From the NCBI GenBank assembly GCA_963789265.1, contig CAWBKB010000001.1, positions 256,001 through 320,000 of the forward strand: a stretch of 64,000 nucleotides of DNA. The letters are read 5' to 3'. A program made the translations under genes and the position numbers. Below, piece after piece: positions 1 to 7,192 of the stretch (position 1 is the stretch's first letter; each line of letters begins with the position of its first letter). The DNA comes from an uncultured delta proteobacterium. Its GTDB lineage: Bacteria > Desulfobacterota > Desulfomonilia > Desulfomonilales > Desulfomonilaceae. A model generated the notes under the pieces. It saw only the letters and a list, made by a program, of their open reading frames with translations. It ran no database searches and was not told where the DNA came from.

Positions 1-1194
1 AACTATGTCGGTTGGTCTGCCGACGGTTTGAACATTTTTACCACGGCCTTTGGAAAGGAGCATGGCTGGGATCCAGCGGTACTGCTCTCGTTGGCCACCC
101 CTGGAGGGTTGATGGGAGTCGTCGGCGCATTCGTCTTCGGACAGATCATCATGAAAAAAGGACCCAGGTTTGTGACGACCGTTTGCCTGGCGTTCGCCGG
201 TCTTTCCGTAATCTGGTTCGGTAGAATCAGCTCACTCCCCGAATTCGCAGTCGCTTTCGCTGCCATAGGATTTTTTGGAAGCGGGTTCGGGTTCATAGCA
301 CCCGGTACCTTGATTACCAACTGGTTTCCAACAAAGAAAGGAATAGCCTTGGGATGGGCAACCATGGGCATGCCAGCCGCAACAGCCTTGTTCGTTCCTC
401 TCATAGCTTTCCTGTTCAGCAGTCTGGGCATCGCAAATGCCGCCGCTTTATATGGGATTATCATGATTGCTCTGGCAGTATTCGCCTTCTTCTTCGTCAA
501 GGATTTCCCGGAGCAGATCGGATGCTGCCCCGATAATGAGACGATCTCTCAGGACGAGATTCAAGCGAACCTGAAGGAGATCGAAGGCTACGAGAGCCCT
601 TTCACGCTGAAAAGGCTCATGAAAGATAGAGAAATGTGGCTCACTTCCCTGGGATTCGGCTGTCTTTGGATGGTTACATTAGGAATTGTCGTCCAGTTAG
701 TGCCACGGCTAATGAGCATAGGTTTTGACCAGCAGACAGCGATCCTCTTGCTTGCTTCGGCTGCTGTGTGCGCACTGCCTGGAAGTGTCCTCTGGGGTTG
801 GTTGGACCAGAAGTATGGAACCAAGCCCGCTGGTATGTTGTATGCCTGCTGGTATGTACTGACCCTCATTCTGTTGATTGCTCAGACGAGAAACACAGCG
901 CTTACCTTTGCCACGGTGGTTTCTGTTGGAATCGGACTCGGTGGCATAAAGAACCTGATTACCTCTATGATCGGATCAGTGTACGGTCGGTACGATTTCA
1001 CTGCTGCTAACCGCATTATCATTCCCATTTCGATCATCGTCCGTACTCTTGGATTTGCGGTCATGGGAATCGCAATGGCTTCAACCAATGGATTCTCCGG
1101 CGCTTACGCCGCCTTTATCGCCGTGGACATTATCGGGTTGATCCTGATTTTCTTTATTTCTCCCGTCTGTAAAGGGAAACTGGCCGCGACTTGA
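1..1194 (+). CDS. MFS transporter (OFA/oxalate:formate antiporter-like), 5' end outside window
   Basis: Multiple hydrophobic helices; motifs NWFPTKKGIALG and GWLDQKYG; frame is open back to the window start. Confidence 0.85.
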   Translation, partial: NYVGWSADGLNIFTTAFGKEHGWDPAVLLSLATPGGLMGVVGAFVFGQIIMKKGPRFVTTVCLAFAGLSVIWFGRISSLPEFAVAFAAIGFFGSGFGFIAPGTLITNWFPTKKGIALGWATMGMPAATALFVPLIAFLFSSLGIANAAALYGIIMIALAVFAFFFVKDFPEQIGCCPDNETISQDEIQANLKEIEGYESPFTLKRLMKDREMWLTSLGFGCLWMVTLGIVVQLVPRLMSIGFDQQTAILLLASAAVCALPGSVLWGWLDQKYGTKPAGMLYACWYVLTLILLIAQTRNTALTFATVVSVGIGLGGIKNLITSMIGSVYGRYDFTAANRIIIPISIIVRTLGFAVMGIAMASTNGFSGAYAAFIAVDIIGLILIFFISPVCKGKLAAT

Positions 1195-1525
1195 CGTTCT
1201 TCAGCAATCTGGCAAATTTTAGCAGGGTGGAGATGACTCCTCACTCCCGGCCTGATGCCCAAAAGCCACGTCCAGGCGAAGCATGTGTTTCCCCAATTTC
1301 CATCTCCATGAGGCCCTGGAGAACTGCAGAAAAGCGTTGGGTTAGGTCAGATAACAAGTCGGGTTGAACATTTTTCAAAAGTTCTGCCCGACATAATCTT
1401 TTGAATTGATAGCGGTCCGGCAACGACACAGACTCTTCTTGCAATAACTCTTGAGCAAGCCTGACAGATGACCTCTCGACCGCAGGCCAATGTCGCCTTG
1501 CCCGCGTGTCACAATTTGTCCAGGC

Positions 1526-1555
1526 TTGACAAATATATATATTTGGGCAAATAAT
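1526..1555 (+). promoter_or_regulatory. sigma70-type promoter for the TetR gene
   Basis: TTGACA at 1526-1531 and AATAAT at 1550-1555, ~27 nt before ATG 1582. Confidence 0.5.
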
Positions 1556-1575
1556 GTACTAAACGGTTGGTACAT
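1554..1575. promoter_or_regulatory. Palindromic TetR operator candidate
   Basis: ATGTAC-TAAACGGTTG-GTACAT inverted repeat between the -10 box and the start codon. Confidence 0.6.
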
Positions 1576-1581
1576 GCGAGG

Positions 1582-2184
1582 ATGAAAGTGGAGGCCGCCA
1601 CAAAAGGTGAAAAAACGAAAGCCAGGGTTCTGGAAACGGCCAGGCGACTGGTCAACGAGAAGGGGTTTTGCAACACAAGCATCAACGACATCATCCAGGC
1701 AACCGGGGTGAAAAAAGGCAATCTGTATTTCCATTTTTCCAGTAAGGAAGAACTGAGCCTGGCAATCCTGGAAGAGGCCGGCAAACAGTTCTCAGCCTTT
1801 CTATTGAAAAGCCTGCAGGGTGAACGTCCCCTGGACAAGCTGTCCAACTTTCTCGACGCGGTCTTTGAAAAGCATAGAAGGGCGAGGTTCGTCGGAGGCT
1901 GACTGTTCGGTAATACCGCTCTGGAAATGAGCGACTCGAACCCTCGTTTATCGGAACTTATAGGGACGGTCTTTGAACGCTGGACCGGACTCGTTGCAGA
2001 AGTGCTGCGTCAAGCTTGTGATGCTGGGGATCTGACCATGAGTGTCCCTCCGGAGCTGTTTGCCAAGCACATTGTTGCCACCATCGAGGGAGGAATCATG
2101 ATGTCGAGGCTGAGCAAAAATGGAGATGATCTTCGAGACTGTTTGAACTCCCTTCGGGTAGCCTTGGGAATAGAGCCGCAGTAG
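1582..2184 (+). CDS. TetR/AcrR (NemR-like) transcriptional regulator, probable selenoprotein (UGA at 1900-1902)
   Basis: ORFs 1567-1902 and 1927-2184 share a frame separated by one TGA; read-through gives FVGG-U-LFGNTALEMSD, matching the GCLxGN motif of this subfamily; N-terminal HTH (GVKKGNLYFHF); SECIS-like hairpin follows. Confidence 0.85.
1905..1941 (+). promoter_or_regulatory. Bacterial SECIS-like hairpin (TetR)
   Basis: Upper stem CGCTC(1917-21)/GAGCG(1929-33), loop TGGAAAT, lower stem GTTCG(1905-09)/CGAAC(1937-41). Confidence 0.7.
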
Positions 2185-2412
2185 AAGCTTGGTCGTCAAG
2201 CATTCAGGCGGCAATGTCCTGGAGTTCAAGGCTGACCCAATATGTTTGAGCATTAAGAGGAAACCCCATGGCACTGCTACGACGTCGAGAACCGGCTAAA
2301 TCGCATCGCAATTTTTGAAGGAGAAATCAGGGTACGAATGTGGCCAGTGCCCCAACTCCTTGCGCTTTTTAACAATTGGTCGATCATTTGCGAGAGTGCG
2401 GGGAAAATTACT

Positions 2413-3282
2413 ATGAACCTCAATTTTGGAAGAAATCGTTGGCTTTCTTTTCTATTCGGAGTGATGTTTGGGGTGATGATCTTGGTCTGTGGAATAGAGC
2501 TGCGTGCTGGAACTGCCGCGGCGGAGATCTCGTTCGACGATTACGCAGCCGTTCTTAAATCCCATGTTGATGATCACGGGATGGTCAATTACAAAGGGTT
2601 GAAGGCGAATCGCAAACCTTTGGACGATTTCATCTCGTCTCTATCTCGTCTCGATCCCAAGTTCTACGATGGTTGGAACGACAAGGAGAAGATAGCATTC
2701 TGGATAAATGCATATAATGCTTTGACTCTCAAAGCTATTGTCGACCATTACCCCATCGAGGCCTCGTTTCTCAAATCCTTTGTTTACCCCAAAAACAGCA
2801 TCCGCCAGATACCCGGAGTGTGGGACAAGCTCACGTTTGCCGTGATGGGCAGTAACATGACGCTGGACGGCATTGAGCACAGCACACTCCGAGCGAAGTT
2901 CAACGAGCCCAGAATTCATATGGCCTTGGTATGCGCGGCGATGGGATGTCCCCCTTTGAGAAACGAACCATATACTGGTGCGAAATTAGACGCTCAACTG
3001 GGCGATCAGGCGGCTAAGTTCTTGAGAAACCCGGAAAAATTCAGAATAGACCGTAATAACAGCAAAGTGAATCTCTCATCGATTTTCAACTGGTTCGGCC
3101 AGGATTTCGTAAAGACGTATGGTACCGTCAAGGAGTTTTCAGGGTTTTCAAAAAAAGAGAGAGCTGTGCTCAATTTCATAAGCCGTTATCTTGCTCCTGC
3201 GGACAGAGCCTTCCTTTTGAAAAGCGGCTTTACCATCGAATATCTGAAGTATGACTGGTCCTTGAACGAAAGGAAAATTTAG
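2413..3282 (+). CDS. DUF547 domain exported protein
   Basis: N-terminal hydrophobic segment; AFWINAYN, EPRIHMALVCAAMGCPPL and YDWSLN motifs; ATG 2413 preferred over 2338. Confidence 0.9.
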   Translation: MNLNFGRNRWLSFLFGVMFGVMILVCGIELRAGTAAAEISFDDYAAVLKSHVDDHGMVNYKGLKANRKPLDDFISSLSRLDPKFYDGWNDKEKIAFWINAYNALTLKAIVDHYPIEASFLKSFVYPKNSIRQIPGVWDKLTFAVMGSNMTLDGIEHSTLRAKFNEPRIHMALVCAAMGCPPLRNEPYTGAKLDAQLGDQAAKFLRNPEKFRIDRNNSKVNLSSIFNWFGQDFVKTYGTVKEFSGFSKKERAVLNFISRYLAPADRAFLLKSGFTIEYLKYDWSLNERKI

Positions 3283-3415
3283 GGCTTTCCGGCATCGATC
3301 TTTTTTGTGCCCGTTTGTCCCTTGAAGGCTAACCGGCTTGCAACAAGAGCCCTTGCTGAAGCTTTCGGGAACGGGAACTTGCCTTCGAGGAAATGATTTC
3401 GCGGTTGGAGGGGGA

Positions 3416-4009
3416 ATGGAAGCATTGATGAATCACGATGCATCGACGTCGCGGAAACAGGAAGCAGCCCCCGAAAAGTGGGTTGACGCTCATGGAGACT
3501 ATTTGTTTCGGTTTGCAATGAGTAGGCTTCAGGATCGCACAATCGCCGAAGATCTGGTCCAGGAAACGTTCTTGGAAGCTCTTCGCTCTCAGCAATCATT
3601 TCAGGGCAGGGCCTCGGAAAGGTCGTGGATGGTTGAGATCCTTCGCCACAGAATAGTGGACTTTATCCGGAAGAGGATTCGAGAGAAGGTGGACCACGAC
3701 GACGGATCATTTGAGAACCTGTCGGAGGAGTATTTCGATGACAAGGGAAGTTGGGCCCTAAAACCTTCGATGTGGGGAAATAACCCGTTAGAAGTCCTAG
3801 AGGAAAAGGAATTCTGGTCTGTGTTGCTCCAGTGCCTGTCAGGTCTTTCCCGCAGTGCGGCTAATGCTTTTGTGCTTCGAGTACTGGAAGAGTGGCCCTA
3901 CGAGGAATTGTCCGAAAACATGAGCATTTCAACAAACAATCTAGGAGTCATCCTGTACCGGGCTCGGATGCAGATCAGAGGTTGCTTGGAGTCGAACTGG
4001 ATCAAGTGA
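3416..4009 (+). CDS. ECF RNA polymerase sigma factor
   Basis: AEDLVQETFL region 2 and NLGVILYRAR region 4; GGAGG RBS before ATG 3416. Confidence 0.9.
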   Translation: MEALMNHDASTSRKQEAAPEKWVDAHGDYLFRFAMSRLQDRTIAEDLVQETFLEALRSQQSFQGRASERSWMVEILRHRIVDFIRKRIREKVDHDDGSFENLSEEYFDDKGSWALKPSMWGNNPLEVLEEKEFWSVLLQCLSGLSRSAANAFVLRVLEEWPYEELSENMSISTNNLGVILYRARMQIRGCLESNWIK

Positions 4010-4027
4010 ACAACCGGGTGGACGATC

Positions 4028-4291
4028 ATGTTGTCCTGCATAGAAGTGACAAGACTCATCTCCGAATCTTTGGACAGGCCGCTGAGTTTTCGGCAGCGGA
4101 TGTCAGTGGCCATGCACCTTTTTGTCTGTAGATTTTGTTCGCGTTATCGGAAACAGATGCGGCTCATAAGCCTTGCAGTACAGCGCTTGGCAAAAGACAA
4201 AGGTGATGCGCTTGAGAATATCTCCGATGACATGCTTTCACCCGAAGCGCGTGAACGGATCAAAGAAAACTTGCGCAGTGGATCCACGTGA
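4028..4291 (+). CDS. zf-HC2 anti-sigma factor
   Basis: MLSC...HLFVCRFC (HxxxCxxC) directly after the ECF gene. Confidence 0.9.
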   Translation: MLSCIEVTRLISESLDRPLSFRQRMSVAMHLFVCRFCSRYRKQMRLISLAVQRLAKDKGDALENISDDMLSPEARERIKENLRSGST

Positions 4292-4364
4292 GCTACCGGG
4301 TCGGCGAATACCGAGCGCCTGGTCGTCGTAACATTCTCTCGGTTCAAGGAATTTTGGAATCTCG

Positions 4365-4392
4365 GTGTAAGCATTTCGTGTTTCAGACGACT
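4365..4392 (+). promoter_or_regulatory. Candidate ECF promoter 1
   Basis: GTGTAAG-N14-GACGACT, same motif and spacing as at 13024-13051; upstream of the reductase-arsS operon. Confidence 0.6.
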
Positions 4393-4522
4393 TAAGGGTA
4401 ACAGCAATTAACGGAAGGAAGCGCGCGGCATCCTCTATTTCATCGAAGCATATTTCCGCAAGGAGAAGATTGCGGACAGAACGTCAATTATTAGGATTTG
4501 AAGGTCCCGAAAGGGGGACACA

Positions 4523-6820
4523 ATGGATGGTACAGCCGAACAATATGGAATGGTCTCCGGATCAAGGCCCAAATTAAGACTTGCAAAAATCATTCTGGTG
4601 GTCGTCATTGCATTGACTCTGTTGCTGTGCCTCTTCCTCTTACCGGTTAAGGATTATTTGATCGTCGCTCTTGAGTGGACACGAGGACTCGGCGTTTGGG
4701 GCCCCTTGTTTGTAGCGGCGTTTTACGTCGTGGCAGCGGTACTTTTCCTACCCGGCTCTATTATCACGCTGGGTGCCGGGTTCCTGTTCGGAGTCCCAGT
4801 GGGTATGCTCACAGTTTGGATCGGGGCGAACCTTGGAGCGTATGCTGCGTTCCTCGTGGGACGAACTGTCGCACGTGAATGGGTCGCACAAAAAGTAAAG
4901 GGAAACGCAAAGTTCGCTGCTATTGACGAAGCACTGGGCAGAGAAGGGTTCAAAATAGTGCTGCTGTTGCGATTGAGCCCGGTGTTTCCGTTCGACCTTC
5001 TTAACTATGCGCTCGGAATTACGAAAGTCTCTTTCGCAAATTATGCCTTGGCCTCACTCATAGGAATGCTTCCCGGCACGCTTATGTACGTTTACTTTGG
5101 CTCGGCAGCAAGATCTCTCACAGAGCTAGCTGCAGGCAAAGTGGAAACCGGGTCAGCCGGCCAAGTGTTCTTTTGGTTCGGACTGGCTGCCACAATTGCA
5201 GTTGCGCTGTTCGTCACAAGAATTGCCCGCAAGAGCTTGAAAGTAGCGGACGCGTCATCTGCTGTTGCAAAAACACCGCAAACACTGATCCCACCTCTTT
5301 TGGATGGCGGGGTCGAGGTTATCCCTGATGACAGGTACAACCGAGAGCTGGTATCTAACGTGCATCCGACCGGTTGGAGCAATCCCCAACCCGCACAACG
5401 CTACAACCTGGTAGTTCTCGGGGCTGGGACGGCTGGGCTCGTTACTGCGGCAGGTGCAGCGGGGCTGGGAGCGAAAGTTGCCCTGGTGGAACGGCATCTC
5501 ATGGGAGGCGATTGCCTCAACTACGGATGTGTGCCATCCAAAGCTCTGATTCGATCATCCAGGGCGTTTGCAGAGATACAGGCGTCGCAAAATTACGGAA
5601 TCGAGGTTCCAGAAGGGGCGTCAATCAATTTTTCGGCGGTTATGGAGCGATTGAGAAGACTCCGAGCAGGAATCAGCCATCATGATTCTGCACAGCGTTT
5701 CAAGGACCTGGGCGTGGATGTTTTCCTCGGGCATGCCGCATTCACCGGCCGTAACACGATAGAGGTCGACAATAAGTCCCTGCATTTCAAGAAGGCGGTC
5801 ATAGCTACCGGCGCCCGGGCCATGCACCCGGGAATCAAAGGCCTGGCCGAGGCGGGGTTTCTCACGAATGAGACTGTGTTTTCTTTGACCGAAAGGCCTT
5901 CGCGACTCGCCCTGATTGGAGGCGGTCCAATAGGCTGTGAACTGGCGCAGGCGTTCCAGAGATTAGGCAGTCAGGTGATTCTTTTCCACAAGAATGACCA
6001 CATACTGGATCGCGAGGACGCGGATGCTGCGGAAATCATTCAGAACAGATTCATCAAAGAGAGGATTCGACTCATTCTGAACAGTGACCTGAAAGAAGTC
6101 GAGACGGTCAACGGCGAAAAGGTGATCCATTTCGAAGTTAGCGGAAAGAGAGACTCCGTCGCTGTGGACGAGATTCTAGTTGGAGCAGGCCGAGCGCCGA
6201 ATGTTGAGCATCTCAACTTGGAGGCCGCTGGAGTTCAATATGATACTCGCAAGGGTTTTTTTGTAGATGATTACTTACGGACCACAAATCGTGCCATTTT
6301 TGCGGTCGGTGATATTTCCATGAGTTATAAGTTTACCCACACCGCAGACGCGGCTGCTCGCATAGTGATTCAGAACGCCCTTTTCAAGGGATCCAAGAAA
6401 CTCAGCGCCCTGACTGTTCCGTGGTGCACCTACACCGATCCGGAAATCGCCCATGTCGGGATGTATGAGAGAGATGCGATAAAGCGCGGAATAGCCGTCG
6501 ACACATTCGTCAGACCTCTGGTGGAAGTTGATAGACCAATACTGGATGGCGAAGCAGACGGATTCGTAAAAGTTCATGTGAAAAATGGCACGGATAAGAT
6601 CCTCGGGGCCACAATAGTGGCTGCTCACGCCGGGGAAATGATAAGCGAACTCACCTTGGCCATGGTGGGAAAGCTGGGGCTCGGGACGATATCGGGAGTC
6701 ATCCATCCCTACCCAACGCAAGCAGAAGCGATCAAGCAGGCTGCGGACGCGTACAGTCGAACCAGACTCACCCCGCTTGTCAAGACGCTCTTTACGAAAT
6801 GGCTTTCCTGGACTCGTTGA
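4523..6820 (+). CDS. VTT/DedA (TVP38/TMEM64) domain fused to a mercuric-reductase-like flavin disulfide oxidoreductase
   Basis: N-terminal LLRLSPVFPF..LNY DedA motif; GAGTAG FAD site, GGDCLNYGCVPSK redox disulfide, HPYPT..E; no C-terminal Cys-Cys. Confidence 0.9.
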   Translation: MDGTAEQYGMVSGSRPKLRLAKIILVVVIALTLLLCLFLLPVKDYLIVALEWTRGLGVWGPLFVAAFYVVAAVLFLPGSIITLGAGFLFGVPVGMLTVWIGANLGAYAAFLVGRTVAREWVAQKVKGNAKFAAIDEALGREGFKIVLLLRLSPVFPFDLLNYALGITKVSFANYALASLIGMLPGTLMYVYFGSAARSLTELAAGKVETGSAGQVFFWFGLAATIAVALFVTRIARKSLKVADASSAVAKTPQTLIPPLLDGGVEVIPDDRYNRELVSNVHPTGWSNPQPAQRYNLVVLGAGTAGLVTAAGAAGLGAKVALVERHLMGGDCLNYGCVPSKALIRSSRAFAEIQASQNYGIEVPEGASINFSAVMERLRRLRAGISHHDSAQRFKDLGVDVFLGHAAFTGRNTIEVDNKSLHFKKAVIATGARAMHPGIKGLAEAGFLTNETVFSLTERPSRLALIGGGPIGCELAQAFQRLGSQVILFHKNDHILDREDADAAEIIQNRFIKERIRLILNSDLKEVETVNGEKVIHFEVSGKRDSVAVDEILVGAGRAPNVEHLNLEAAGVQYDTRKGFFVDDYLRTTNRAIFAVGDISMSYKFTHTADAAARIVIQNALFKGSKKLSALTVPWCTYTDPEIAHVGMYERDAIKRGIAVDTFVRPLVEVDRPILDGEADGFVKVHVKNGTDKILGATIVAAHAGEMISELTLAMVGKLGLGTISGVIHPYPTQAEAIKQAADAYSRTRLTPLVKTLFTKWLSWTR

Positions 6821-6858
6821 GGCGAGATCCAATAGCCGATACTGTCAGGAGGAGATTC

Positions 6859-7192
6859 ATGGAAACCTATTATGACCCCAAAGACCTTCCGAAATTCGCT
6901 GACATCGGAGAAGAAGCTCCCGAGTTGGCAAAGAAGTTCTTCGATTACTATGGAGCCGTGTTTGCCGAAGGTGAACTCACAGAACGAGAAAAGGCTTTGA
7001 TCGCCCTGGCTGTAGCACATGCCGTTCAATGTCCGTATTGCATAGACGCCTATACCCAGAACCTGTTTGGAAAAAGGGGCCAGTCTCGGTGAAATGACTG
7101 AGGCCGTTCACGTGACCACGGCCATCAGGGGCGGCGCTTCGCTTGTACACGCGACTCAGATGAGGAAAATTGTCAAGAAGGTTTCCATGTGA
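6859..7192 (+). CDS. Carboxymuconolactone-decarboxylase-like (arsenosugar biosynthesis-associated peroxidase-like) protein, +1 frameshift near 7060
   Basis: METYY...QCPYCIDAYTQ then shifted frame TCLEKGASLGEMTEAVHVTTAIRGGASLVH...SM*; AGGAGG RBS. Confidence 0.85.

What the first reader, a model, noticed from the sequence alone, without database searches (positions are those of the whole stretch)
1582..2184. Selenocysteine-containing TetR repressor: a Sec-based sensor transcription factor
Seen: two same-frame ORFs are joined by a single TGA (1900-1902). Read-through gives a full-length 200-aa TetR with GG-U-LFGN. A two-stem hairpin follows, with a loop G 21 nt after the UGA. Established: in NemR-like TetRs the GCL cysteine is the conserved redox/electrophile sensor, and bacterial SECIS elements lie just 3' of UGA with a G early in the apical loop. 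Inference: the repressor senses oxidant, electrophile or As/Hg through Sec. Without selenium, translation would stop after the HTH half, so repression could also depend on Se supply. Sec is normally catalytic, so a Sec transcription factor is unusual. I cannot check whether this family has already been catalogued.
Basis: partly seen in the sequence, partly recalled or inferred. Interest (0 to 1): 0.92.

Follow-up and report, generated by a model that had tools for sequence, protein, structure and literature searches.

The report
Selenocysteine-coding TetR repressor gene
A bacterial gene switch of the TetR type has a "stop" codon that almost certainly encodes selenocysteine exactly where its relatives carry their sensing cysteine, which would put selenium in a DNA-binding regulator rather than in an enzyme.

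Summary
A single in-frame TGA (1900-1902) joins two ORFs into one TetR_N + TetR_C_13 protein. It has 200 aa from ATG 1582, or more likely 198 aa from GTG 1588.

The TGA lies in a column that holds only Cys or TGA codons in 124 related loci (33 TGA, 91 Cys). It recurs in at least three separate clades, and coding downstream is under the same purifying selection as upstream.

A 5-bp stem with a UGGAAAU loop follows 19 nt after the UGA and fits the published bacterial SECIS model. It forms in 22 of 24 TGA forms against 10 of 90 Cys forms, and it puts its loop "GGA" at the same distance from the UGA as in this genome's own selD. The genome has selA, selB, selD and tRNA-Sec, and otherwise uses TGA as its commonest stop.

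The Sec aligns with Cys106 of E. coli NemR, that repressor's reactive-chlorine sensor.

A 20-bp palindrome, unique in the genome, overlaps the gene's promoter and is conserved in 11 of 11 orthologs. The genes usually found downstream encode DUF547 and a DedA-fused MerA/RclA-like flavoprotein reductase.

I found no TetR in a 2026 list of 119 prokaryotic selenoprotein families. Public annotations split the gene in two. What the protein senses is untested.

The parts
1526..1555 (+). Sigma-70-type promoter: TTGACA (1526-1531), an 18-nt spacer, then AATAAT (1550-1555)
   Evidence: Best promoter-like site in 1100-7000, matching 11 of 12 positions. A TTGACA at the same relative place is visible in the ortholog upstreams.
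1555..1574 (.). 20-bp palindromic operator TGTACTAAACGGTTGGTACA, overlapping the -10 hexamer and the likely transcription start
   Evidence: It is the only site in the window (0.01 expected by chance). It is also the only TGTACY-N8-RGTACA site in the 6.06-Mb genome. It is conserved upstream of 11 of 11 orthologous genes inspected, L093 included. Binding by this protein is inferred, not shown.
1578..1581 (+). Likely ribosome-binding site GAGG
   Evidence: It lies 6 nt before GTG 1588. The same GAGG-N6-start arrangement is seen in orthologs.
1582..2184 (+). TetR-family repressor gene read through one UGA. It gives 200 aa from ATG 1582; the start is more likely GTG 1588, giving 198 aa.
   Evidence: Pfam TetR_N 3e-14, TetR_C_13 4e-22. 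The AF2 model has mean pLDDT 94.7 and is all-helical. The nearest PDB folds are 3qbm, 3bru, 3eup and 4l62, with 4yze (NemR) at rank 9. Start site.
1630..1767 (+). Helix-turn-helix DNA-binding domain (TetR_N, residues 17-62)
1900..1902 (+). UGA read as selenocysteine (U107; U105 if the start is 1588)
   Evidence: The column holds 33 TGA, 61 TGC, 30 TGT and nothing else in 124 loci. It aligns with NemR C106. In the model it sits at the N-terminal cap of helix 108-116.
1905..1941 (+). SECIS-like element. Core stem 1917-1921/1929-1933 with apical loop UGGAAAU (1922-1928), plus an optional lower stem 1905-1909/1937-1941.
   Evidence: There are 19 nt from the UGA to the loop, G is at loop positions 2-3, and MFE is -13.5 kcal/mol for UGA+45 nt. 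These values meet the bSECIS criteria quoted in PMC13188914 section 5. The core pairs hold in 23-24 of 24 TGA forms, with one compensatory pair. The core is present in 22 of 24 TGA forms against 10 of 90 Cys forms. Synonymous sites are frozen. The loop geometry matches this genome's selD.
2140..2142 (+). Cys187, a second conserved cysteine and a candidate partner for a selenenylsulfide bond
   Evidence: Cys in 10 of 10 Sec-form orthologs that have this column, and in 53 of 78 Cys-form relatives. Its proximity to U107 was not measured.
2338..3282 (+). DUF547 gene, a probable member of the regulated operon
   Evidence: Pfam DUF547, 1e-27. There is no terminator-like site between it and the TetR gene. 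A homolog lies downstream of the Sec-TetR in 5 of 12 Sec-form loci and 0 of 79 Cys-form loci.
3338..4291 (+). ECF sigma factor (3338-4009) and zf-HC2 anti-sigma factor (4028-4291), inserted here only
   Evidence: Found next to the TetR in only 1 of 12 Sec-form loci, the window's own.
4523..6820 (+). DedA/VTT membrane domain fused to a pyridine-nucleotide-disulfide oxidoreductase (MerA/RclA-like), the probable regulated effector
   Evidence: Pfam VTT_dom + Pyr_redox_2 + Pyr_redox_dim. NCBIfam NF004991 scores 841.6 bits against a cut-off of 620; MerA, RclA and HOSCN-reductase models score below their cut-offs. A homolog lies downstream of the TetR in 6 of 12 Sec-form loci plus this window, and next to 3 of 79 Cys-form relatives.

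Best explanation
The gene encodes a full-length TetR-family repressor in which UGA 1900-1902 is decoded as selenocysteine by SelB, directed by the hairpin at 1917-1933.

As a dimer, the protein most likely binds the 20-bp palindrome that overlaps its own promoter. That would shut off its own gene and, by read-through transcription, the downstream DUF547 gene and the DedA-fused MerA/RclA-like flavoprotein reductase gene.

Sec107 occupies the position of NemR Cys106, at the N-terminal cap of a helix in the regulatory domain. I propose that it is the reactive sensing atom. Oxidation (to a selenenic acid, then a Se-S bond with Cys187 or another adduct) or alkylation by an electrophile would change the regulatory domain, release the DNA and induce the reductase module.

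Selenium would make the switch faster at low doses and easier to reset than sulfur, which would suit a strict anaerobe.

Shown here: the conserved UGA/Cys column, translation past the UGA, the SECIS features, the Sec machinery, the operator conservation and the synteny.

Inferred: Sec insertion itself, DNA binding at the palindrome, co-transcription, and the nature of the signal.
For: Recoding.
- 14 of 30 related loci have TGA at one column and the other 16 have TGC/TGT. Over 124 loci the column holds 33 TGA and 91 Cys codons, with no other residue.
- On a tree of 115 unique proteins, the Sec forms fall in an 11-row clade (support 99), in L093 alone beside a Cys form (99), and in a 14-row clade holding 12 U and 2 C (100). 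This needs at least 4 changes.
- pN/pS is 0.297 upstream of the TGA and 0.299 downstream in the orthologous clade.
- Codons +1 to +4 keep their amino acids while varying synonymously.
- TGA ends 24 of 41 long ORFs in the window, so it is not reassigned genome-wide.

SECIS.
- The published criteria are met.
- The core stem pairs in 23-24 of 24 sequences. Pair 21-31 is C-G in 12, U-A in 10 and U-G in 1.
- All five core pairs form in 22 of 24 TGA forms against 10 of 90 Cys forms.
- Codons +5 to +10 are frozen: GCT 10/12, CTG 11/11, GAA 12/12, AGC 11/11. The flanking Gly codons vary, and Cys forms use mixed codons.
- selD of the same genome has its loop GGA at the same offset, 23-25 nt from the U of UGA. 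In the two FdhA-type genes the apical loop begins with GG at offset 26 and at offset 21.
- 7 of 8 metagenome hits to a pattern based on protein coding alone are full-length read-through TetRs with 5 of 5 pairs.

Machinery.
- selB 386 bits, selA 594 bits, selD 360 bits with 1 TGA, and tRNA-Sec 71 bits.
- selA is over its cut-off in 10 of 10 other genomes that hold the ortholog.

Sensor role.
- U107 aligns with NemR C106, which senses reactive chlorine species (passages in PMC7464077, and PMC3739934).
- NemR 4yze is among the top structural matches.

Regulation.
- Promoter, a palindrome unique in the genome and conserved in 11 of 11 orthologs, and conserved downstream genes.
Against: - There is no protein-level or RNA-level evidence. 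No selenium labelling or mass spectrometry exists for this protein.
- The hairpin is not more stable than shuffled sequence (z = -0.57). Mean folding energy of the orthologous Sec forms equals that of the Cys forms (-9.9 against -9.8 kcal/mol).
- Part of the stem follows from the conserved amino acids A-L-E-x-S/G-D. 34 of 78 Cys forms already make 4 of the 5 pairs.
- The one compensatory pair mostly separates two clades, so it may reflect few events.
- The genomes are related and not independent.
- Identity to NemR is only 24%. NemR's C21, C116 and K175 are not kept: they align with V, S and R. No NCBIfam model reached its cut-off.
- The neighbours are not nemA/gloA.
- Co-transcription with the downstream genes is inferred. 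The palindrome occurs only once, and 153 nt separate the TetR gene from the DUF547 gene.
- The second Sec clade sits beside acyl-CoA metabolism genes, so no single signal need apply to all Sec-TetRs.
Confidence: 0.62

Rival explanations
1. The protein is a genuine Sec-TetR, but Sec binds a ligand or metal(loid) rather than acting as a redox or electrophile target. The selenolate, with nearby thiols, would coordinate Hg, Cu, As, Se or Te species, or a sulfur or selenium compound, and so induce the MerA/RclA-like reductase.
For: - The conserved effector is a membrane-anchored flavoprotein disulfide reductase whose next-best models are MerA, RclA and HOSCN reductase.
- In the second Sec clade the Sec sits in a Cys-rich site: Cys at -4 in 11 of 12, Cys at -1 in 6 of 12, plus Cys at own positions 38 and 175.
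- CU and CxxU motifs mark metal-handling selenoproteins in Table 1 of PMC13188914.
Against: - The window's clade has only Sec107 and Cys187 as conserved chalcogen residues, with no CxxC or CxC next to the Sec.
- The one characterised protein with this cysteine, NemR, uses it for oxidant sensing.
- No metal transporter or mer/ars gene lies beside it.
Confidence: 0.15
2. The main point of the UGA is to gauge selenium supply. With selenium, the full repressor is made. Without it, translation stops after the DNA-binding half. That fragment cannot dimerise or repress, so the DedA-reductase module (possibly handling selenium) is switched on.
For: - Stopping at the UGA leaves 104-106 residues that lack the whole dimerisation and regulatory domain.
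- The conserved downstream gene carries a DedA domain. A reference in PMC10127716 links a DedA protein to selenite resistance; I saw the reference list only.
- DUF547 and the VTT-reductase gene are almost confined to the Sec forms: DUF547 in 5 of 12 Sec forms against 0 of 79 Cys forms.
Against: - Every selenoprotein truncates without selenium, so the effect needs no selection.
- The Sec replaces an invariant, functionally important Cys rather than sitting at a neutral site.
- Cys-form relatives in Geobacterales also neighbour the reductase homolog, in 3 of 79 loci, so the regulatory link predates Sec.
- The second Sec clade controls unrelated acyl-CoA genes.
Confidence: 0.1
3. It is not a selenoprotein. 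Either the TGA is a true stop and the locus is a split or decaying gene, as public annotation has it (a 104-aa HTH protein and an 85-aa C-terminal protein), or the UGA is read through at a low level by a near-cognate tRNA.
For: - Gene callers split it. 24 of 64 short database hits end at ...F[V]GG, about 30 are C-terminal pieces, and some NCBI names read 'TetR C-terminal domain-containing protein'.
- An ATG (1927) lies 8 codons after the TGA.
- The hairpin's energy is ordinary.
Against: - The stop is always TGA and always at the invariant Cys column, in at least three clades.
- The eight codons between the TGA and the internal Met are conserved as protein, with synonymous variation. Several orthologs have CTG or TTG in place of that ATG.
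- Selection is equally strong on both halves.
- A hairpin specific to the TGA forms matches the geometry of this genome's own selD SECIS.
- The full Sec machinery is present.
Confidence: 0.05

Closest known systems
E. coli NemR (b1649; PDB 4yze), a TetR-family repressor that senses reactive chlorine species and electrophiles
   Same: - Same domain pair, TetR_N + TetR_C_13.
- Same fold: Foldseek rank 9, E = 5e-7.
- The sensing Cys106 aligns exactly with U107.
- It represses its own operon, which includes detoxifying oxidoreductases (passages).
   Different: - Identity is only 24%.
- The sensing atom is Sec rather than Cys.
- NemR's K175 (the sulfenamide partner), C21 and C116 are not kept: they align with R176, V24 and S117.
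- The neighbours are DUF547 and a DedA-fused flavoprotein reductase, not nemA/gloA.
- This is a relative within the same C-terminal domain family, not an ortholog.
Caur_2221 of Chloroflexus aurantiacus (PDB 3qbm) and the Rhodobacter sphaeroides TetR of PDB 3bru
   Same: They are the closest solved structures: phmmer 2e-30 and 2e-15, Foldseek TM 0.87 and 0.84. Both carry the GGC/GC motif aligned with U107.
   Different: Both have Cys at that position. Neither PDB title states a function. The top NCBIfam hits for the window's protein, ScbR-type and AcuR, are far below their cut-offs.
Known bacterial selenoprotein genes with an in-ORF SECIS and Cys-containing homologs (for example selD and fdhA of this same genome)
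   Same: - A UGA at a functional Cys column.
- A hairpin 16-37 nt downstream with G at the start of the loop.
- Repeated Cys/Sec exchange.
   Different: All 119 families and subfamilies listed in Table 1 of PMC13188914 are enzymes, redox or metal-handling proteins, transporters or unknowns. No helix-turn-helix DNA-binding regulator is listed; the nearest entry is 'Putative regulatory protein, FmdB family'.
E. coli RclR/RclA reactive-chlorine defence (recalled; RclA seen here only as an NCBIfam model name)
   Same: A thiol-type sensor regulator is paired with a MerA-like flavoprotein disulfide reductase. The RclA model scores 236 bits against the window's reductase domain.
   Different: The regulator there is not TetR-family (recalled). 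The RclA model is far below its cut-off of 740 bits. The reductase here is fused to a DedA membrane domain.

Membership tests
Bacterial selenoprotein gene (UGA = Sec) | In-frame UGA aligned with Cys in homologs | tested here: met
   In 124 loci the column holds 33 TGA, 61 TGC, 30 TGT and nothing else. It is invariant Cys in 38 database homologs.
Bacterial selenoprotein gene (UGA = Sec) | UGA-containing orthologs in other Sec-using organisms, with coding conserved past the UGA | tested here: met
   11 genomes hold the orthologous clade and 7 metagenome contigs carry it. pN/pS is 0.297 before the UGA and 0.299 after it.
Bacterial selenoprotein gene (UGA = Sec) | bSECIS: loop of 3-9 nt, stem of 4-16 bp, G in the first two loop positions, 16-37 nt from the UGA, MFE <= -7.5 kcal/mol (criteria from PMC13188914) | tested here: met
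   The loop is 7 nt (UGGAAAU), the core stem is 5 bp, the spacing is 19 nt and MFE is -13.5 kcal/mol. The stem is kept in 22 of 24 UGA forms against 10 of 90 Cys forms. bSECISearch itself was not run.
Bacterial selenoprotein gene (UGA = Sec) | selA, selB, selC and selD in the genome | tested here: met
   all score over the curated cut-offs.
Bacterial selenoprotein gene (UGA = Sec) | Selenium found in the protein | not testable with these tools
   This needs 75Se labelling or mass spectrometry.
TetR family of transcriptional repressors | N-terminal TetR HTH domain plus an all-helical C-terminal regulatory domain | tested here: met
   PF00440 at 3e-14 and PF16925 at 4e-22. The model has nine helices and pLDDT 94.7. 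The top 50 PDB matches are TetR-family proteins.
TetR family of transcriptional repressors | Palindromic operator at the promoter of the regulated gene or genes | tested here: inconclusive
   A conserved 20-bp palindrome, unique in the genome, overlaps the -10 hexamer. Binding was not tested.
NemR (E. coli-type ortholog) | Sensing Cys106 | tested here: met
   It aligns with U107.
NemR (E. coli-type ortholog) | Lys175 sulfenamide partner, and Cys21 and Cys116 | tested here: not met
   The aligned residues are R176, V24 and S117. R fills this position in 9 of 10 Sec-form orthologs that have the column.
NemR (E. coli-type ortholog) | Control of nemA (old yellow enzyme) and gloA | tested here: not met
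   The neighbours are DUF547, an ECF sigma/anti-sigma pair and a DedA-reductase fusion. No nemA or gloA homolog appears in the ortholog flanks scanned.

The most novel reading that the evidence does not exclude
This would be the first bacterial DNA-binding transcription factor whose sensing atom is selenium, and it would take two inputs. The chemical state of Sec107 reports oxidant or electrophile stress. The efficiency of UGA decoding reports selenium supply. Both act on a DedA-fused flavoprotein reductase that may handle reactive chalcogen or oxidant species.

The switch arose at least three times. One likely reason is that the coding sequence for the conserved ...NTALE(M/L)SD... helix already forms most of a SECIS at the right distance: 4 of the 5 stem pairs in 34 of 78 Cys forms. 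A single TGY-to-TGA change plus one or two synonymous changes would then be enough.
Probability: 0.2. Interest if true: 0.9.

Novelty: new variant of a known kind. Interest (0 to 1): 0.78.

Why it matters
Selenocysteine is known almost only from the active sites of redox enzymes and from metal-handling proteins. A Sec-bearing repressor would extend it to signal sensing and gene control.

It would also provide a natural Cys/Sec pair for asking what selenium adds to a thiol switch: speed, sensitivity and reversibility. That question is usually approached with engineered proteins.

There is a practical consequence too. Public pipelines split these genes into an 'HTH-only' regulator and a 'C-terminal domain' protein. 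Regulons in Desulfomonile-like and related anaerobes are therefore mis-annotated.

The finding also links a widespread but uncharacterised module (DUF547 plus a DedA-fused MerA/RclA-like reductase) to a defined sensor, which gives a handle for studying that module.

Tried and rejected
- Rfam at gathering thresholds found nothing in the window. This is not informative, because bacterial SECIS elements are poorly covered.
- The single-sequence fold of the hairpin is not significant. Overall MFE does not separate Sec forms from Cys forms in the orthologous clade. I dropped energy as an argument.
- The lower stem 1905-1909/1937-1941 pairs in only 74% of cells and is not kept in the second clade. 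I do not count it as part of the conserved core.
- No RNA holder was listed for the stretch. The four DNA runs come from one study and give only short contigs, one of which covers the TGA with no differences. They may be the source sample, so I use them only as a weak check.
- The NCBIfam scan put no model over its cut-off, and no NemR model appeared.
- Literature searches for a TetR selenoprotein:
  - Searches found none.
  - The only 'TetR family' hit was a candidate pyrrolysine (TAG) protein of Methanosarcina in PMC1914089.
  - 'TetR' was absent from the text of PMC9312934, PMC12013277, PMC2398784, PMC1976440, PMC13326102 and the preprint 10.1101/2022.07.06.499078.
  - It is also absent from Table 1 of PMC13188914.
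- Not seen:
  - Haft & Tolstoy 2025 is not held. Its families reach me only through that review's table.
  - The BSepDB supplement was cut when stored, so its family table (S2) could not be read.
  - The BSepDB website and RefSeq's selenocysteine-flagged records could not be queried.
- Earlier notes of this scan hold nothing on this protein or this genome.
- One of the 8 metagenome pattern hits (L154) is a chance match and not a TetR.
Full report
**Observation.** The window has a single TGA at 1900-1902, between an ORF ending there and an ORF starting at 1927 in the same frame. Reading it through gives a 200-residue protein with ...FVGG-U-LFGNTALE.... Pfam finds TetR_N at residues 17-62, and TetR_C_13 at residues 83-186, so the C-terminal domain spans the stop.

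- core stem 1917-1921/1929-1933;
- loop UGGAAAU 1922-1928;
- possible lower stem 1905-1909/1937-1941.

Taken alone, its energy is ordinary: z = -0.57, and 47 of 200 shuffles fold as well.

The start is more likely GTG 1588 than ATG 1582. Orthologs start at the aligned codon, 6 nt after a GAGG, and gene callers chose it too (104-aa fragments). I keep the numbering from 1582.

**Is the TGA real and conserved?** A six-frame search of 61 related genomes gave 50 listed matches at E <= 1e-20. Sixteen of them carry exactly one in-frame TGA.

I aligned 30 of the fetched loci. The TGA fell in a single column in 14, and the other 16 had TGC or TGT there. I then added all 122 genomes of the class and 80 loci from a species-level genome collection. 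The column then held 33 TGA, 61 TGC, 30 TGT and nothing else in 124 loci; some loci are the same genome fetched twice.

After removing duplicates, the sets were:
- 12 Sec forms and 78 Cys forms in the query's subfamily;
- 12 Sec forms and 12 Cys forms in a second subfamily about 33% identical to the query.

Four more TGA forms at the same column were seen in loci fetched later.

A pattern built only from the protein-coding flank of the TGA found 8 metagenome stretches. Seven are full-length read-through TetRs and one is a chance match.

The record titles place the orthologs in MAGs labelled Desulfomonile tiedjei, Desulfomonilaceae and Syntrophales, among others.

A contig of one public run matches 1761-1992 exactly, but it may come from the source sample.

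**Is it translated past the TGA?** In the orthologous clade, pN/pS is 0.297 for the half before the TGA and 0.299 for the half after it. Synonymous sites are near saturation, with pS of 0.64-0.70. In the second clade the values are 0.338 and 0.390.

The four codons right after the TGA keep L/I-F-G-N while their third positions vary freely. This excludes a restart at the internal Met.

TGA is the stop of 24 of 41 long ORFs in the window, so the codon is not reassigned genome-wide.

**SECIS.** The review PMC13188914 (section 5, read in full) gives the bacterial model:
- an apical loop of 3-9 nt;
- a stem of 4-16 bp;
- a G in the first two loop positions;
- 16-37 nt between the UGA and the loop;
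- MFE <= -7.5 kcal/mol.

The element here has a 7-nt loop with GG at positions 2-3, a 5-bp core stem, 19 nt of spacing and -13.5 kcal/mol for UGA+45 nt.

Across 24 distinct Sec forms, the five core pairs hold in 24, 23, 24, 23 and 23 sequences. One pair changes on both sides: C-G in 12, U-A in 10, U-G in 1. The lower stem is weak, at 74%.

As a control, all five pairs form in 22 of 24 Sec forms but in only 10 of 90 Cys forms.

In the Sec forms the codons that build the stem are frozen: GCT 10/12, CTG 11/11, GAA 12/12, AGC 11/11. The neighbouring Gly codons use three synonyms. Cys forms with the same amino acids use mixed codons: GCT 15/77, CTG 39/77, GAA 40/78.

There is also an internal positive control. 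This genome's selD has its own in-frame TGA, followed by a 7-bp stem whose loop GGA sits at offsets 23-25 from the U of UGA. That is the same offset as in the TetR. The two formate-dehydrogenase-type genes with a TGA have apical loops that begin with GG at offsets 26 and 21.

Two caveats apply. Part of the stem follows from the conserved peptide, since 34 of 78 Cys forms already make four pairs. And the sequences are related, so the counts overstate independence.

**Machinery.** The following all score over the curated cut-offs in the window's genome:
- selB, 386 bits;
- selA, 594 bits;
- selD, 360 bits, with one TGA;
- tRNA-Sec, 71 bits.

selA is over its cut-off in 10 of 10 other genomes that carry the ortholog. 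This is not discriminating if the whole family has it.

**Evolution.** The tree was a quick IQ-TREE run on 115 unique proteins, unrooted. It places the Sec forms as follows:
- an 11-row clade (support 99), all from one family of genomes;
- L093 alone, beside a Cys form (99);
- a 14-row clade (100) with 12 Sec and 2 Cys forms.

This needs at least 4 changes of state. L093 has a different hairpin sequence at the same place. The near-SECIS already present in the Cys forms offers a simple reason for the repeated exchange.

**What the residue is.** E. coli NemR was fetched from the K-12 record. It aligns over 191 residues at 24% identity (E = 7e-13), and its Cys106 lies opposite U107.

Passages in PMC7464077 and PMC3739934 state two things. 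[quoted passage not shown] Cys21 and Cys116 act in electrophile sensing. Those three partners are not conserved here: the aligned residues are R176, V24 and S117.

A second Cys (C187) is kept in 10 of 10 Sec-form orthologs that have that column, and in 53 of 78 Cys forms.

The AlphaFold model has pLDDT 94.7 and puts U107 at the N-terminal cap of helix 108-116. From general knowledge, this is a setting typical of reactive thiols.

The nearest solved structures are 3qbm, 3bru, 3eup and 4l62, with NemR 4yze at rank 9.

The protein therefore belongs to the NemR-containing TetR_C_13 group and shares its sensor position. It is not a NemR ortholog.

**Regulatory setting.** The best promoter-like site in 1100-7000 is TTGACA-18-AATAAT at 1526-1555, matching 11 of 12 positions.

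A 20-bp palindrome at 1555-1574 overlaps the -10 hexamer. It is the only such site in the window and in the 6.06-Mb genome. It is conserved, together with the TTGACA, upstream of 11 of 11 orthologs inspected.

No terminator-like site separates the gene from the next one. The genes downstream are:
- DUF547;
- an ECF sigma factor with a zf-HC2 anti-sigma factor;
- a DedA/VTT domain fused to a pyridine-nucleotide-disulfide oxidoreductase. This is NCBIfam NF004991 at 841.6 bits against a cut-off of 620. MerA, RclA and HOSCN-reductase models score lower and below their cut-offs.

Among the 12 Sec-form loci, a DUF547 homolog follows in 5 and the fused reductase in 6. The 5 include this window's own locus. 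The 6 do not, because that locus was cut too short to reach its reductase gene. Three loci end at the TetR gene, so they cannot be scored.

Among 79 Cys forms, the reductase homolog is adjacent in 3, all Geobacterales-type, and DUF547 in none.

PMC10127716 (passages) notes that fusion to these oxidoreductase domains is the commonest fusion in the COG0398 DedA subfamily, and that the function of this fusion is unknown.

The second Sec clade has different neighbours: DUF3795, enoyl-CoA hydratase, the 2-hydroxyglutaryl-CoA dehydratase D-component and an ADP-forming CoA ligase. It also has a Cys-rich site around the Sec.

**Mechanism proposed.** The protein is a self-repressing TetR dimer bound at 1555-1574. 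Sec107 is its reactive centre. Oxidation or alkylation of Sec107 releases the DNA and induces the DUF547 and DedA-reductase module.

The comparative signature of Sec coding, the operator conservation and the synteny are shown. Sec insertion, DNA binding, co-transcription and the signal are inferred.

The rivals are metal(loid) or ligand binding by the selenolate, selenium-supply gating as the main function, and a split gene or non-Sec read-through. They are scored separately in the report.

**Novelty.** Table 1 of the 2026 review PMC13188914 lists 119 prokaryotic selenoprotein families and subfamilies. I read parts 1 and 2 of section 7. It contains no TetR or other helix-turn-helix regulator.

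Word searches of the held library and of six further selenoproteome papers found no TetR selenoprotein.

Public protein sets hold this gene only in halves. No full-length protein above 69% identity exists in them, yet 104-aa fragments reach 85% identity.

Some sources were not seen: Haft & Tolstoy 2025, the BSepDB family table and website, and RefSeq's Sec-flagged records. The claim is therefore 'not found in what I could read', not 'never reported'.

Earlier notes of this scan on other candidate selenoprotein families were later marked as partly fallen. This is a further reason to keep the novelty claim modest.

Noticed in passing
Other genomes: L023, L024, L026, L027, L029, L030, L034, L036, L038, L061, L062, L064, L163, L164: There is a second TetR clade, about 33% identical to the window's protein, with TGA at the same column and a stronger hairpin (UCGCCC-AGGAGCU-GGGCGA). 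The Sec sits in a Cys-rich site: Cys at -4 in 11 of 12, Cys at -1 in 6 of 12, and Cys next to the Lys that aligns with NemR K175. The neighbours are DUF3795, enoyl-CoA hydratase, HGD-D and CoA-ligase genes. Three genomes of the window's own genus have this form but not the window's form.
   Followed up: partly
L161 (G014:C4) and L162 (G035:C256): Two further TetR genes, about 26% identical to the query, have TGA at the same column in a ...GGKAT-U-LFAK... motif. Their hairpins and neighbours were not examined.
   Followed up: partly
L067:3683-4141, L070:936-1394, L069:2284-2742, L093:4639-5223: ORFs of 153-195 aa just downstream of several TetR genes match the last third of GrdB/PrdB (PF07355, profile positions up to about 345 of 347; PrdB model 75 bits). 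Three of the TetR genes are Sec forms and one is a Cys form. The ORFs end where those enzymes carry their own Sec, so these are probably further selenoprotein genes cut short at a UGA.
   Followed up: no
L067:5186-6597: An AhpD/CMD-family gene and a radical SAM gene with DUF3641 lie beside one Sec-TetR. Both families appear in the review's selenoprotein list. The locus may be a cluster of selenoprotein genes.
   Followed up: no
window 3338-4291: An ECF sigma factor and a zf-HC2 (zinc anti-sigma type) partner are inserted between the DUF547 gene and the DedA-reductase gene. This occurs only in this genome, 1 of 12 Sec-form loci. It could act as a second redox-responsive control layer on the same module.
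   Followed up: partly
G000:C7:193442-194362 (L010); G000:C4:138837-141863 (L155); G000:C1:2104183-2104902 (L156): This genome's selD and two formate-dehydrogenase-type genes each carry one in-frame TGA followed by strong hairpins (-15 to -23 kcal/mol). The genome is an ordinary, active user of Sec.
   Followed up: partly
L093 (a MAG labelled Pseudomonadota in its record title), 3001-3600: A Sec form 50% identical to the query sits beside a Cys-form sister on the tree. It has a different hairpin (CCAU-UGAA-AUGG) at the same distance from the UGA, and the same upstream palindrome type. It looks like an independent Cys/Sec exchange.
   Followed up: partly
L055 (G071:C330) 1798-1851: One orthologous Sec form has a C-A mismatch in the core stem (4 of 5 pairs) and a second in-frame TGA within the extracted 200-codon span. 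It may be decaying, or it may use a shifted structure.
   Followed up: no
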